The notes below the pieces were generated by a model. The model searched no databases. It saw only the letters and a program-made list of their open reading frames with translations, and was not told the DNA's origin. The position numbers and the translations under genes were made by a program. Positions 6,731-9,205 of a stretch of DNA of 10,626 nt are shown here, piece by piece (position 1 is the first letter of the stretch; every line of letters begins with the position of its first letter). The stretch lies in IMG/VR virus record IMGVR_UViG_2529292985_000036, one strand, 5' to 3'. Origin of the DNA: a virus. Taxonomy: Duplodnaviria > Heunggongvirae > Uroviricota > Caudoviricetes.

Positions 6731-9205
6731 ATGAGTAAAGTCTTTATTTGCGCCGCCATTCCGGACGAACAGGCAATAAAGGAAGAAGGTGCCGTCGCTG
6801 TAGCCACTGCCATTGAAGCCGGTGATGAACGTCGCGCCCGCGCAAAATTTCACTGGCAATTCCTGGAACATTATCCGGCTGCTCAGGACTGCGCTTATAA
6901 ATTTCTTGTCTGCGAGGATAAACCCGGTATACCCCGCCCTGCCCTCGATTCCTGGGATGCTGAATATATGCAGGAAAACCGCTGGGATGAGGAATCCGCT
7001 TCCTTTATTCCAGTCGAACCAGAATCCGATCCGATGAACGTCAATTTTGACAAGCTGTCCCTTGAAGTACAGAACGCGGTCCTGGTTAAGTTCGGTACAT
7101 GTGAAAACATCACCGTTGATATGGCGATTGACGCGCAGGAATTACTGCAGGAAGACGTTGCTACCTTTGACGGGCATATCGTTGAAGCACTGATGAAAAC
7201 GCCTGAAATTAACGCTATGTATCCGGAACGCAAACTGTTCGCTATCGGATGGGTTAAACACAAATGTAATCCGGGTGCCAAATGGCCCGAAATTCAGGCT
7301 GAATTACGTAACTGGAAAAAACGGCAGGACGCAGAGCGCAAAGAGACTGGAAAATACACGTCTGTTGTTGATCTCGCCAGCGCCAGAGTCAATCAACAGA
7401 ACACTGAAAACTCAGCAGGAAAAATCAACCCAGTCACTGCCGCCATTTGTCGCGAATACAAGCAGACATGGAAAACGCTGGATGAAGAACTGGCCTACGC
7501 TCTCTGGCCTGGCGATATTGATACCGGAAACATTGACGGCAGCATCCATCGCTGGGCAAAAAATGAAGTTATCGACAAAGATCGCGAAGACTGGAAGCGC
7601 ATTTCCGCATCAATGCGCAAACAACCCGATGCCGTTCGCTACGACCGTCAGACTATTTTTGGCCTTGTCCGTGAGCGTCCGATCGACATTCACAAAGATC
7701 CCGTAGCACTGAACAAATACATCACTGAATACCTGACTACCAAGGGCGTGTTTGAAGATGACGAAGGAACAAATCAGGGCACAGCTGGTACTCTCCCGTC
7801 ACCAGTACCAGAAACTGATGCAGTGGAAACGGCAATGCCGGACAACGAAAAAACCGAATGCGAAGTGGAAGACGAACCATCTGTAGAGCGTGAGGGACCG
7901 TTCTACTTCCTTTTCACCGATAAGGACGGCGAAAAATACGGTCGCGCAAACAAACTTTCTGGTCTGGAAAAAGCACTGGCCCTGGGAGCTACGGAAATCA
8001 CAAAAGAGGAATACTTCGCACGTAAAAACGGCACGTACTCAGGTTCACAACAAAATACTGGTGCATCTGACACGATCGCACAACCAGAGCCGGTAAAAGT
8101 TACCGCTGACGAAGTAAACAAAATTATGCAGGCAGCCAATATCAGCCAGCCTGACGCCAATAATTTGCTTGCTGTATCACGTGGTGAATTTGTTGCAGGG
8201 ATTAGCGACCCGAATGATCCGAAATGGGTGAAGGGGATTGAAACCCGCGATTCAGTGAATCAGAACCAGCAAGAAACGGAACAGAACGGCCAGAAAGCGG
8301 AACAAAACAGCCCAAATGCGTTACAAAACGAGCCAGAAACGAAACAGCCTGAACCAGTGGCGCAACAGGAAGTGGAAAAAGTCTGCACCGCCTGCGGTCA
8401 GACCGGCGGCGGCAACTGCCCTGATTGTGGCGCGGTGATGGGCGACGCAACATACCAGGAAACATTCGATGAAGAGTATCAGGTTGAAGTTCAGGAAGAT
8501 GATCCGGAGGAAATGGAAGGCGCTGAACATCCACACAAGGAGAACACTGACGGCAATCAGCATCACGATAGCGATAATGAAACTGGCGAGACGGCAGATC
8601 ACTCAATTAAGGTGAACGGTCATCAAGAAATCACATCCACCAGCAGGACGTGTGACCATCTAATGATCGACCTTGAAACCATGGGAAAAAATCCTGATGC
8701 CCCGATCATCTCAATAGGTGCAATATTTTTCGATCCGCAAACCGGAGATATGGGACCGGAATTTAGTAAGACTATCGATCTGGAAACTGCTGGCGGGGTC
8801 ATTGATCGGGACACCATTAAATGGTGGCTTAAGCAATCACGCGAAGCGCAATCTGCCATTATGACCGATGAAATCCCGTTAGATGATGCACTGTTACAAT
8901 TGCGGGAATTTATCGACGAAAACTCCGGTGAATTTTTTGTTCAGGTCTGGGGAAATGGAGCCAACTTCGACAACACGATTTTGCGCCGTTCATACGAACG
9001 GCAGGGGATCCCCTGCCCGTGGCGTTACTACAACGATCGCGATGTACGCACAATCGTTGAGCTGGGGAAAGCCATAGACTTCGATGCCAGAACGGCTATT
9101 CCATTCGAAGGTGAGCGCCATAATGCACTTGATGACGCCCGTTACCAGGCAAAATACGTTTCAGTTATCTGGCAAAAACTGATCCCGAATCAGGCTGATT
9201 TTTAA
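6731..9205 (+). CDS. Large prophage exonuclease: RecE-like N-terminal/central region, a CxxC-x10-CxxC zinc-ribbon-like motif, and a C-terminal DEDDh (DnaQ-like) 3'-5' exonuclease domain, 824 aa
   Basis: Seen: central [29 protein letters not shown] (RecE-like by recall); [16 protein letters not shown]; C-terminal MIDLETMG (Exo I motif), [13 protein letters not shown] and [13 protein letters not shown] (Exo III H-x4-D). Position between ydfD and xis corresponds to ydfE/exodeoxyribonuclease VIII-type genes in Qin-like prophages. Confidence 0.8.
   Translation: [824 protein letters not shown]

What the first reader, a model, noticed from the sequence alone, without database searches (positions are those of the whole stretch)
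6731..9205. 824-aa exonuclease fusing a RecE-like region to a DEDDh domain, with no recT/bet partner
The C-terminal 190 aa carry clear DnaQ-like motifs ([16 protein letters not shown]), whereas canonical RecE ends in a PD-(D/E)XK nuclease. Upstream are a RecE-like segment ([20 protein letters not shown]) and a CxxC-x10-CxxC zinc-ribbon-like motif. No annealing-protein gene lies between this gene and xis, unlike the Rac recE-recT arrangement. The gene may serve a role other than classical RecET recombination, such as nucleic-acid degradation or anti-defence.
Basis: partly seen in the sequence, partly recalled or inferred. Interest (0 to 1): 0.5.

Follow-up and report, generated by a model that had tools for sequence, protein, structure and literature searches.

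The report
RecE-scaffold protein with swapped 3'-5' exonuclease
This is the intact form of the E. coli K-12 pseudogene ydfE: a very common lambdoid-prophage early protein that keeps part of the RecE scaffold, carries a DexA-type 3'-5' exonuclease where RecE has its 5'-3' nuclease, and never has a RecT partner, so its architecture is explained but its biological role is still untested.

Summary
ORF 6731-9205 encodes 824 aa. Its C-terminus (aa 643-814) is a DEDDh exonuclease (Pfam PF16473, E=2e-67) with catalytic residues D647, E649, D747, H797 and D802. Residues ~480-626 are ~80% identical to RecE 459-591 and include a zinc ribbon, which is CxxC-x7-CxxC, not x10. No annealase gene lies in the window or in a whole related prophage.

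The gene is the intact version of the K-12 Qin pseudogene ydfE. It occurs in about 4,800 of 5,426 complete E. coli genomes.

The family is modular. It has two alternative N-termini (YdfE-type or RecE-type), a shared middle module, and alternative C-termini. In the loci read, the PD-(D/E)XK versions had recT downstream in 5 of 5. The DEDDh versions ran straight into xis or int in 10 of 10. Versions without a recognisable nuclease were followed by a Mu Gam-like gene.

The gene sits in the DicA-repressed dicBF-type early operon. The N-terminal modules fold confidently but match no known fold.

A 2025 paper already lists phage Tritos, which carries this gene, as "nuclease, no annealase". Another 2025 paper reports that a 40%-identical stand-alone homologue, EcD, degrades T4 DNA.

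Verdict: a real, RecT-independent variant of a known kind. Its role is uncharacterised and the interest is moderate.

The parts
6717..6720 (+). Shine-Dalgarno GAGG, 10 nt upstream of the ATG
   Evidence: read directly from the sequence
6731..9205 (+). 824-aa ORF: intact ydfE-type prophage exonuclease with domains YdfE_N + YdfE_C + Rv2179c-like
   Evidence: annotated 'exonuclease' or '3'-5' exonuclease' in RefSeq
6731..7030 (+). aa 1-100: N-terminal alpha/beta module (YdfE-type), pLDDT ~90
7043..7348 (+). aa 105-206: helical module (YdfE-type)
   Evidence: AF2 pLDDT 86-97; dN/dS 0.14
7463..7750 (+). aa 245-340: helical middle module, shared with RecE aa ~281-356 and with all family members (YdfE_C)
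   Evidence: dN/dS 0.08
7886..8035 (+). aa 386-435: small folded module with motif ERxGPFY..GRANK..EI[ST]xEE[YH]xARKxG
   Evidence: alignment A3; AF2 pLDDT ~90; dN/dS 0.04
8159..8227 (+). aa 477-499: conserved motif [20 protein letters not shown], shared with RecE and with both N-terminal types
8384..8428 (+). aa 552-566: zinc-ribbon-like CTAC-x7-CPDC, identical in pattern to RecE CNAC-x7-CPDC
   Evidence: AF2 confidence only ~64
8471..8650 (+). aa 581-640: acidic low-complexity linker; the mosaic junction where the nuclease domains are exchanged
   Evidence: composition; dN/dS ~1.2; RecE similarity ends at aa 626
8657..9172 (+). aa 643-814: DEDDh 3'-5' exonuclease domain (PF16473, DexA/Rv2179c family); catalytic codons D647 (8669-8671), E649 (8675-8677), D747 (8969-8971), H797 (9119-9121), D802 (9134-9136)
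4595..5002 (+). DicA-like repressor that controls the early-left (dicBF-type) operon containing the gene
   Evidence: PMC10448788
6036..6087 (+). DicF sRNA, in the same operon
   Evidence: Rfam RF00039, 76.7 bits
6262..6450 (+). dicB, in the same operon
   Evidence: Pfam PF05358, E=1.8e-37
6447..6635 (+). ydfD-like gene (DUF1482), immediately upstream
9270..9518 (+). excisionase, immediately downstream; no annealase gene in between
9496..10626 (+). integrase (prophage at the ompW site)

Best explanation
The gene is the intact form of ydfE. It is the last early-left-operon gene before xis and int in a Qin/PPompW-type lambdoid prophage. The protein is a mosaic of the RecE/YdfE scaffold family. 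It has two YdfE-type N-terminal modules and a middle module shared with RecE. A small conserved domain follows, then the RecE-type '[10 protein letters not shown]' motif, a zinc ribbon and an acidic linker. At that linker, RecE's 5'-3' PD-(D/E)XK nuclease has been replaced by a DexA/Rv2179c-family DEDDh domain.

Shown: the architecture, the intact catalytic pentad (D647, E649, D747, H797, D802), purifying selection on every folded module, placement in a DicA-repressed operon, and strict absence of RecT in DEDDh versions against strict presence in PD-(D/E)XK versions.

Inferred: on prophage derepression or infection the protein is made together with DicF, DicB and YdfD. It acts as a self-sufficient, two-metal 3'-5' exonuclease, most likely on DNA 3' ends. 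The non-catalytic N-terminal modules bring it to its substrate or to a host partner. It does not work as a RecET-type exonuclease-annealase pair. Any recombination or replication role must use host functions (RecA, RecBCD), in line with the published 'nuclease-only, no annealase' Tritos class.
For: RecE homology is limited to aa 262-626. Identity to YdfE is 88% over aa 1-256. The module map of 60 representatives shows all N x C combinations, and precomputed Pfam architectures agree. RecT lies downstream in 5 of 5 PD-(D/E)XK loci. None is present in 10 of 10 DEDDh loci (window), nor in a whole PPompW prophage record. dN/dS is 0.04-0.14 on the folded modules. No + strand promoter or terminator was detected between dicB and the gene, and the dicBF operon, including ydfE, is DicA-repressed (PMC10448788). 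A 58%-identical stand-alone homologue sits between ssb and abc2, next to a Rad52-type annealase, in phage mEpX2. Phage Tritos carries this gene at 91% nucleotide identity and is the prototype of the 'nuclease +, SAP -' class in PMC12315714. T4 DexA and E. coli EcD, both in the same Pfam family, are DNA exonucleases (PMC12153337).
Against: No biochemical or genetic data exist for this protein or for any full-length relative. 3'-5' exonucleases usually antagonise rather than promote recombination (noted in PMC12315714). The family's namesake, Rv2179c, is an exoribonuclease according to its Pfam description, so a DNA substrate is not certain. The N-terminal modules gave no informative fold match, so 'targeting' is inference from conservation and from the shared scaffold. 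This particular prophage looks defective: it has an IS1 insertion and a frameshifted P gene. The related PPompW prophage is not Chi-rich.
Confidence: 0.5

Rival explanations
1. It is an HREX/EcD-like anti-phage or superinfection-exclusion nuclease. On this reading the prophage uses the DEDDh domain to destroy incoming, possibly modified, competitor phage DNA.
For: EcD was located here as L013:5989-6570, a stand-alone gene in a P2-like prophage. It is reported to degrade T4 DNA and to protect E. coli (PMC12153337). Our domain is 40% identical to it, with all catalytic residues and the WW pair conserved. The neighbouring DicB is itself reported to protect against phages (title of PMC6832061, seen).
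Against: The gene lies in the DicA-repressed early operon and no promoter of its own was detected (PMC10448788). D719 is retained where EcD has A78, the change said to confer selectivity. The DexA D169 equivalent is A781. PADLOC gave no hit. This reading does not explain the 640-aa RecE/YdfE scaffold.
Confidence: 0.2
2. It is a DexA-like host-DNA scavenging nuclease that degrades host chromosome fragments during lytic growth to feed phage DNA synthesis.
For: It belongs to the same Pfam family as T4 DexA. It is expressed early together with host-shutoff-type genes such as dicB, dicF and ydfD.
Against: Temperate lambdoid phages are not known to degrade the host chromosome (general knowledge). 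Identity to DexA is only 26%. This reading gives no reason for the RecE scaffold or for the position next to xis and int.
Confidence: 0.1
3. It still works as a two-component recombinase, using an annealase supplied in trans by another prophage or by the host. On this reading the 3'-5' exonuclease produces 5' single-stranded tails for annealing.
For: It shares the scaffold and the genomic slot with recE. E. coli genomes carry a median of 2 places matching this gene and several prophages. A stand-alone homologue sits in a Rad52-type/SSB/Abc2 module.
Against: None of 10 DEDDh loci has an adjacent RecT, against 5 of 5 for PD-(D/E)XK loci. By established knowledge (Muyrers et al. 2000, from memory), RecE-RecT pairing is specific and maps to the nuclease domain, which is absent here. 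Functional phages such as mEp460 show no annealase anywhere in their early-left region.
Confidence: 0.08
4. It is an exoribonuclease (Rv2179c-like) acting on RNA, for example on phage or host transcripts or on processing of the dicF-containing polycistronic RNA.
For: The Pfam family is named for an exoribonuclease. The gene shares an operon with DicF, whose maturation needs processing (PMC10448788).
Against: The closest characterised relatives (DexA, EcD) act on DNA (PMC12153337). DicF processing is attributed to RNase III and RNase E, and it occurs in K-12, where ydfE is truncated (PMC10448788).
Confidence: 0.07
5. It is a decaying, functionless remnant of a cryptic prophage.
For: This prophage carries an IS1 insertion and a frameshifted P gene. 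The K-12 and PPompW_EH2246 copies are pseudogenes.
Against: The 824-codon ORF is intact. dN/dS is 0.04-0.14 on the folded modules. At least 80% of the gene's length is matched in 3,511 genomes. The gene is present in plaque-forming phages such as mEp460, Tritos, HannyBb and Evi.
Confidence: 0.03

Closest known systems
RecE (exonuclease VIII) of the Rac prophage, with RecT
   Same: It occupies the same slot, as the last large early-left gene before xis and int. The middle module is shared (aa 245-345 with RecE ~281-356). Residues 480-626 are about 80% identical to RecE 459-591, including the [10 protein letters not shown] motif and the CxxC-x7-CxxC ribbon. The DNA is 84% identical over nt 1456-1859 of the gene.
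   Different: The C-terminal nuclease is DEDDh (3'-5') instead of PD-(D/E)XK (5'-3'). The first 260 aa are YdfE-type, not RecE-type. There is no recT. The NCBIfam RecE equivalog scores 274 bits against a cut-off of 1269.
YdfE (b1577), pseudogene of the K-12 Qin prophage
   Same: 88% identity over aa 1-256, and the same operon order: dicA, ydfA, dicF, dicB, ydfD, ydfE.
   Different: The K-12 copy is cut by IS2E after about 256 codons and has lost everything downstream, including the nuclease.
T4 DexA (PDB 8KEL/8KEN) and E. coli EcD ('HREX')
   Same: Same Pfam family (PF16473). All five catalytic residues and the WW pair are conserved. Identity is 26% to DexA and 40% to the EcD-type protein.
   Different: Both are stand-alone proteins of ~190-227 aa, whereas here the domain is the C-terminus of an 824-aa scaffold. 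The residue replaced in EcD (A78) is still D here (D719). The DexA D169 equivalent is A781. EcD sits in the early operon of a P2-like prophage.
Stand-alone DnaQ-like nucleases of lambdoid early-left operons (mEpX2, epsilon34 type; PMC12315714)
   Same: 58-60% identity to the C-terminal domain. In mEpX2 the gene lies between ssb and abc2, next to a Rad52-type annealase.
   Different: They are not fused to a scaffold. Some lie inside a complete recombination module, whereas the fused form never has an annealase.
'Tritos' Rec-module type and 'RecE-2' proteins (Genome Res 2025, PMC12315714)
   Same: Phage Tritos carries this gene at 91% nucleotide identity and is listed as nuclease +, annealase -, SSB -, anti-RecBCD -. 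RecE-2 proteins (for example ZF40 gp07) share the YdfE-type N-terminus.
   Different: In the text I could read, the paper does not describe the domain fusion or the covariation between nuclease type and RecT. RecE-2 proteins lack a recognisable nuclease and are followed by a Mu Gam-like gene.

Membership tests
DEDDh (DnaQ-like) exonucleases, Pfam PF16473 Rv2179c-like / DexA family | Profile match above the curated threshold | tested here: met
   226.6 bits against a cut-off of 27, aa 643-814 covering profile positions 2-177 of 177
DEDDh (DnaQ-like) exonucleases, Pfam PF16473 Rv2179c-like / DexA family | Exo I (DxE), Exo II (D) and Exo III (H-x4-D) catalytic residues | tested here: met
   D647, E649, D747, H797 and D802 align with DexA D7, E9, D119, H186 and D191, and are invariant in 5 aligned homologues
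DEDDh (DnaQ-like) exonucleases, Pfam PF16473 Rv2179c-like / DexA family | 3'-5' exonuclease activity, and substrate (DNA or RNA) | not testable with these tools
   needs enzyme assays
RecE / exonuclease VIII | Full-length equivalog score (NCBIfam NF007259) | tested here: not met
   274 bits against a cut-off of 1269; only aa 448-626 match well
RecE / exonuclease VIII | C-terminal PD-(D/E)XK nuclease domain (PF12684/DUF3799 type) | tested here: not met
   no such Pfam match at E<=1; local phmmer with RecE 601-866 finds nothing in this protein
RecE / exonuclease VIII | Adjacent recT annealase gene | tested here: not met
   xis follows after 64 nt; no RecT, Erf, Bet or Rad52-type gene in the window
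RecE / exonuclease VIII | Shared central region (motif [10 protein letters not shown] plus zinc ribbon) | tested here: met
   BLASTP E=4e-60, aa 262-626 against RecE 278-591
YdfE family (Pfam PF27430 YdfE_N, PF27432 YdfE_C) | N-terminal and middle domains matching the family | tested here: met
   proteins 98-100% identical over aa 1-344 carry precomputed PF27430 + PF27432 hits (names); 88% identity to K-12 YdfE. These two models are not in the local Pfam copy, so they were not scanned directly
HREX / EcD anti-phage exonuclease | Homology to EcD with intact catalytic residues | tested here: met
   40% identity, E=1e-40, to the EcD-type protein L013:5989-6567
HREX / EcD anti-phage exonuclease | Loss of the DexA D90 tetramer contact (A78 in EcD), proposed to give selectivity for modified DNA | tested here: not met
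   the aligned residue is D719
HREX / EcD anti-phage exonuclease | 5hmC-recognition residues (Trp and the DexA D169 equivalent) | tested here: inconclusive
   W698 and W699 are conserved; the D169 column holds A781 here and S in the EcD-type protein, so the alignment in this loop is uncertain
HREX / EcD anti-phage exonuclease | Protection against T4-like phages; expression in uninfected cells | not testable with these tools
   context argues for repression in lysogens (PMC10448788), but expression was not measured

The most novel reading that the evidence does not exclude
The non-catalytic RecE/YdfE N-terminal region, whose function in RecE is still listed as unknown (PMC11611040), may be a general platform for targeting DNA ends or a host factor. 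Lambdoid phages would then combine it with interchangeable outputs: a 5'-3' nuclease plus RecT, a 3'-5' DEDDh nuclease alone, or no nuclease plus a Mu Gam-like end-binding partner. On this reading the DEDDh version is a RecT-independent end-processing or end-destroying enzyme. Possible actions are trimming 3' tails to steer host RecBCD/RecA, or attacking competitor or defence DNA. Studying it would also reveal what the RecE N-terminus does.
Probability: 0.25. Interest if true: 0.65.

Novelty: new variant of a known kind. Interest (0 to 1): 0.42.

Why it matters
The gene matches about 88% of complete E. coli genomes, often in several copies, and also occurs in Stx-converting and other inducible lambdoid phages. 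No function has been tested for it. It shows that the RecE scaffold is a mosaic platform whose nuclease can be exchanged, and that the annealase partner follows the nuclease type rather than the scaffold. That gives a concrete way to study two open points: what the dispensable ~600-aa N-terminal part of RecE does, and how the many lambdoid phages without an annealase handle DNA ends. If the DEDDh form also restricts other phages, as reported for EcD, it would be a very widespread prophage-borne competition factor.

Tried and rejected
1. The search for related loci with the N-terminal alignment failed because no stretch was conserved enough.
2. Searching viral contigs for the EcD reverse-primer 20-mer gave only a chance match. 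EcD was then found by a short blastn of the primers against E. coli genomes.
4. PADLOC gave no hit for the full protein.
5. I tested whether this prophage type is Chi-rich, as reported for annealase-less lambdoids. A whole PPompW record has only 3 and 1 Chi sites on its two strands, so this is not supported here.
6. I considered an internal start at M645 that would yield a stand-alone nuclease. Only a weak AGGA lies 15 nt upstream, so there is no support.
7. I looked for a promoter in front of the gene that would allow expression in lysogens. None was found on the + strand.
8. The first homologue search was swamped by E. coli fragments and gave little diversity. The representative search was used instead.
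Full report
**1. The observation**

The window has an ATG-initiated ORF at 6731-9205 (+) of 824 codons. A GAGG Shine-Dalgarno lies 10 nt upstream.

Pfam places aa 643-814 in PF16473, the Rv2179c-like 3'-5' exonuclease family (E=2.2e-67, 226.6 bits, cut-off 27, full profile coverage). There is also a weaker RNase_T match.

An alignment with T4 DexA and three stand-alone E. coli or phage homologues shows the catalytic pentad D647, E649, D747, H797 and D802 is invariant. The only solved structures found by sequence are 8KEL and 8KEN, 227-residue chains deposited as 'Exodeoxyribonuclease' and 227 aa like T4 DexA. 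8KEN carries A at positions 87 and 90, as in the DexA S87A/D90A mutant of PMC12153337.

The RecE-like segment is real. BLASTP against K-12 RecE gives E=4e-60 for aa 262-626 against RecE 278-591. Identity is very high from aa ~480 onward, and this block includes [13 protein letters not shown] and the cysteine motif. The motif spacing is CxxC-x7-CxxC, not x10.

The NCBIfam RecE equivalog matches only partially (274 bits against a cut-off of 1269). The first 256 aa are 88% identical to the K-12 Qin pseudogene product YdfE, which is truncated by IS2E.

**2. Context**

The window is the early region of a lambdoid prophage at the ompW site. The gene order is as follows:

- an IS1 fragment;
- leftward replication and Cro-side genes: Ead/Ea22, DUF4406, DUF977, DUF1627, P, a DnaT-like O protein, YdaT and Cro/DicC;
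- rightward, a DicA-like repressor, a ydfA-like gene, a hypothetical gene, DicF sRNA (Rfam 76.7 bits), dicB, a ydfD-like gene, the exonuclease, xis and int.

No annealase or Gam-type gene was found by Pfam or PHROGs. [quoted passage not shown]

The consensus scan found no promoter-like or terminator-like site on the + strand between 5700 and 7882, that is between dicB and the start of the gene; the only + strand site, a terminator-like hairpin at 7883, lies inside the gene. In K-12 the dicBF operon, which includes ydfE, is transcribed from dicBp and repressed by DicA (PMC10448788). The gene is therefore most likely an early lytic gene that is silent in the lysogen.

**3. Distribution and constraint**

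Megablast finds the gene in 4,800 of 5,426 complete E. coli genomes, with at least 80% coverage in 3,511 and a median of 2 places per genome. The C-terminal domain alone is found in 4,223 genomes.

The gene is also present in phages mEp460, Tritos, HannyBb, Evi, PhiR42_1 and the PPompW/Stx2a records.

I compared this copy with the mEp460 copy. dN/dS is 0.04-0.14 on the four folded non-catalytic modules, 0.31 on the nuclease domain and about 1 on the low-complexity linkers. dS varies from 0.04 to 0.99 along the gene, which is the signature of intragenic mosaicism.

**4. The family is modular**

An exhaustive HMMER search with aa 1-460 found 193 representatives. I mapped the modules of this protein and of RecE onto the 60 longest representatives. 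The components are:

- two alternative N-terminal modules, YdfE-type or RecE-type;
- a shared middle module;
- an optional small domain (aa 386-435 here);
- the [10 protein letters not shown] motif;
- either a zinc ribbon or, in other members, a GxGRFSI[DE]GLM motif;
- a C-terminus that is DEDDh, RecE-type PD-(D/E)XK, or neither.

All N x C combinations occur. Precomputed Pfam architectures agree: YdfE_N + YdfE_C + Rv2179c-like, Exonuc_VIII + Rv2179c-like, YdfE_N + YdfE_C + DUF3799, and Exonuc_VIII + DUF3799.

**5. The partner follows the nuclease, not the scaffold**

| C-terminal type | Loci read | Next gene downstream |
|---|---|---|
| PD-(D/E)XK | K-12 RecE, P0129, P0172, P0248, P0175 | recT in 5 of 5 |
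| DEDDh | window, strains 510016 and FDAARGOS_1260, mEp460, vB_EcoS-813R8, P0252, P0122, P0138, P0232, P0264 | xis or int directly in 10 of 10 |
| no recognisable nuclease | P0131, P0148, ZF40 gp07 | Sipho_Gp157 / Mu Gam-like gene in 3 of 3 |

The downstream ORF of P0129 is RecT at Pfam E=2e-36. The Gam-like genes are mutually homologous (E=1e-29 to 1e-42).

Counting only clusters at 50% identity or less (6 against 5), the association has a Fisher probability of about 0.002. The sample is small and was not corrected for phylogeny.

**6. Structure**

AlphaFold2 on aa 1-350 with a 27-sequence alignment gave a mean pLDDT of 85.9. It shows three folded units (aa ~1-100 alpha/beta, ~105-206 helical, ~245-340 helical) and a disordered stretch at 221-237.

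The model of aa 356-580 has one confident small domain, aa ~386-435. Confidence is low elsewhere, including the metal-free zinc ribbon, and there was no PDB match.

So the 640-aa non-catalytic part contains real, conserved domains of unknown fold class and shows no second enzyme.

**7. Literature**

A 2023 review still lists the RecE N-terminal region as of unknown function. [quoted passage not shown]

A 2025 Genome Research paper classifies lambdoid recombination modules. It states that DnaQ-like 3'-5' nucleases occur in them. It lists 'Tritos' (4 phages) as nuclease +, annealase -, SSB -, anti-RecBCD -. It also mentions 'RecE-2' proteins without a nuclease domain (PMC12315714). Tritos carries this gene at 91% nucleotide identity.

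A 2025 NAR paper reports that T4 DexA and an E. coli homologue, EcD, cleave 5hmC DNA, and that plasmid-borne EcD protects against T4 (PMC12153337). Using the published primers, I located EcD-type genes as stand-alone 193-aa ORFs in the early operon of a P2-like prophage.

The domain studied here is 40% identical to the EcD-type protein, 58-60% identical to lambdoid stand-alone homologues and 26% identical to DexA. One stand-alone homologue, in phage mEpX2, sits in the order Rad52-type annealase, SSB, exonuclease, Abc2. Others sit in annealase-less early operons.

**8. Interpretation**

What is shown: an intact, selected, very common early-operon protein in which the RecE/YdfE scaffold carries a catalytically complete DEDDh exonuclease and never a RecT partner.

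What is inferred:

- It is a self-sufficient 3'-5' exonuclease, probably acting on DNA.
- The scaffold directs it to its substrate or to a host partner.
- It acts after derepression.
- Any recombination role depends on host functions.

The main rivals are an EcD-like anti-phage nuclease, DexA-like scavenging of host DNA, use of an annealase supplied in trans, an RNA substrate, and decay. They cannot be excluded without experiments. I rank them below the main reading for reasons of operon placement, residue differences from EcD, the covariation with RecT, and the selection pattern.

**9. Novelty**

The gene is annotated everywhere as an exonuclease. Its domains are in Pfam, and its 'nuclease without annealase' status is in the 2025 literature at class level.

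Three things seem not to have been stated in what I could read:

- the explicit domain-swap relationship to RecE at the acidic linker;
- the identification of the gene as intact ydfE;
- the strict covariation of RecT, or of a Gam-like partner, with the C-terminal type.

I rate it a new variant of a known kind, of moderate interest.

Noticed in passing
window 1-393: The 3' end of an IS1 element: an InsB C-terminal ORF at 1-378 and the terminal inverted repeat ATCAATAAGTTGGAGTCATTACC at 371-393. Related prophages match only from position 393 onward. The insertion runs into the Ead/Ea22-like gene (313-786, minus strand) and replaces its natural 3' end.
   Followed up: partly
window ~2291-2750 (minus strand): The replication gene P is split between two reading frames near 2625-2650, relative to the intact 153-aa P protein of strain FDAARGOS_1260 (tblastn frames -2 and -3). 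Together with the IS1 insertion, this suggests the prophage is defective even though the exonuclease ORF is intact.
   Followed up: partly
window 6036-6087 (+): DicF sRNA (Rfam RF00039, 76.7 bits, full length) lies in the same operon, upstream of dicB.
   Followed up: yes
window 8637 and 9226 (minus strand): Two Chi sequences (CCACCAGC as read on the + strand). One lies inside the exonuclease gene just before the DEDDh domain, the other between the gene and xis. About 0.16 per strand would be expected. The whole PPompW prophage is nevertheless not Chi-rich, with 3 and 1 sites on its two strands.
   Followed up: partly
relatives in alignment A3, e.g. segments of P0131, P0134, P0140, P0148, P0205: Many family members carry a short conserved motif, G-x-G-[RIM]-F-S-[IV]-[DE]-G-L-[MIL], downstream of the conserved modules (after [10 protein letters not shown] where that motif is present), at the place where this protein and RecE have the zinc ribbon. 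It looks like a linear interaction motif. Its partner is unknown.
   Followed up: no
L012:7160-7675, L025:5867-6427, L026:5858-6421: Family members without a recognisable nuclease domain (the 'RecE-2' type, including Pectobacterium phage ZF40 gp07) are each followed, with overlapping stop and start codons, by a homologous Sipho_Gp157 / Mu Gam-like gene.
   Followed up: partly
L013:5989-6570 (E. coli 2013C-3033): The EcD-type 'HREX' exonuclease of PMC12153337 sits in the early operon of a P2-like prophage, next to a ParE-like toxin gene, a Dam methylase and the GpA replication endonuclease. The published construct (MIDTET...) starts four codons inside the RefSeq ORF. Its reverse primer differs from this allele by one base near the stop codon.
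   Followed up: partly
window 6731-9205 compared with L003:8001-10472: Synonymous divergence from the mEp460 copy varies about 25-fold between adjacent segments (dS 0.04 to 0.99). This indicates repeated recombination inside the gene at the low-complexity linkers.
   Followed up: partly
window 5343-5729 (+): A 128-aa early-operon ORF has no Pfam match and only unknown-function PHROGs (phrog_6937). It occupies the position where K-12 Qin has ydfB and ydfC.
   Followed up: no
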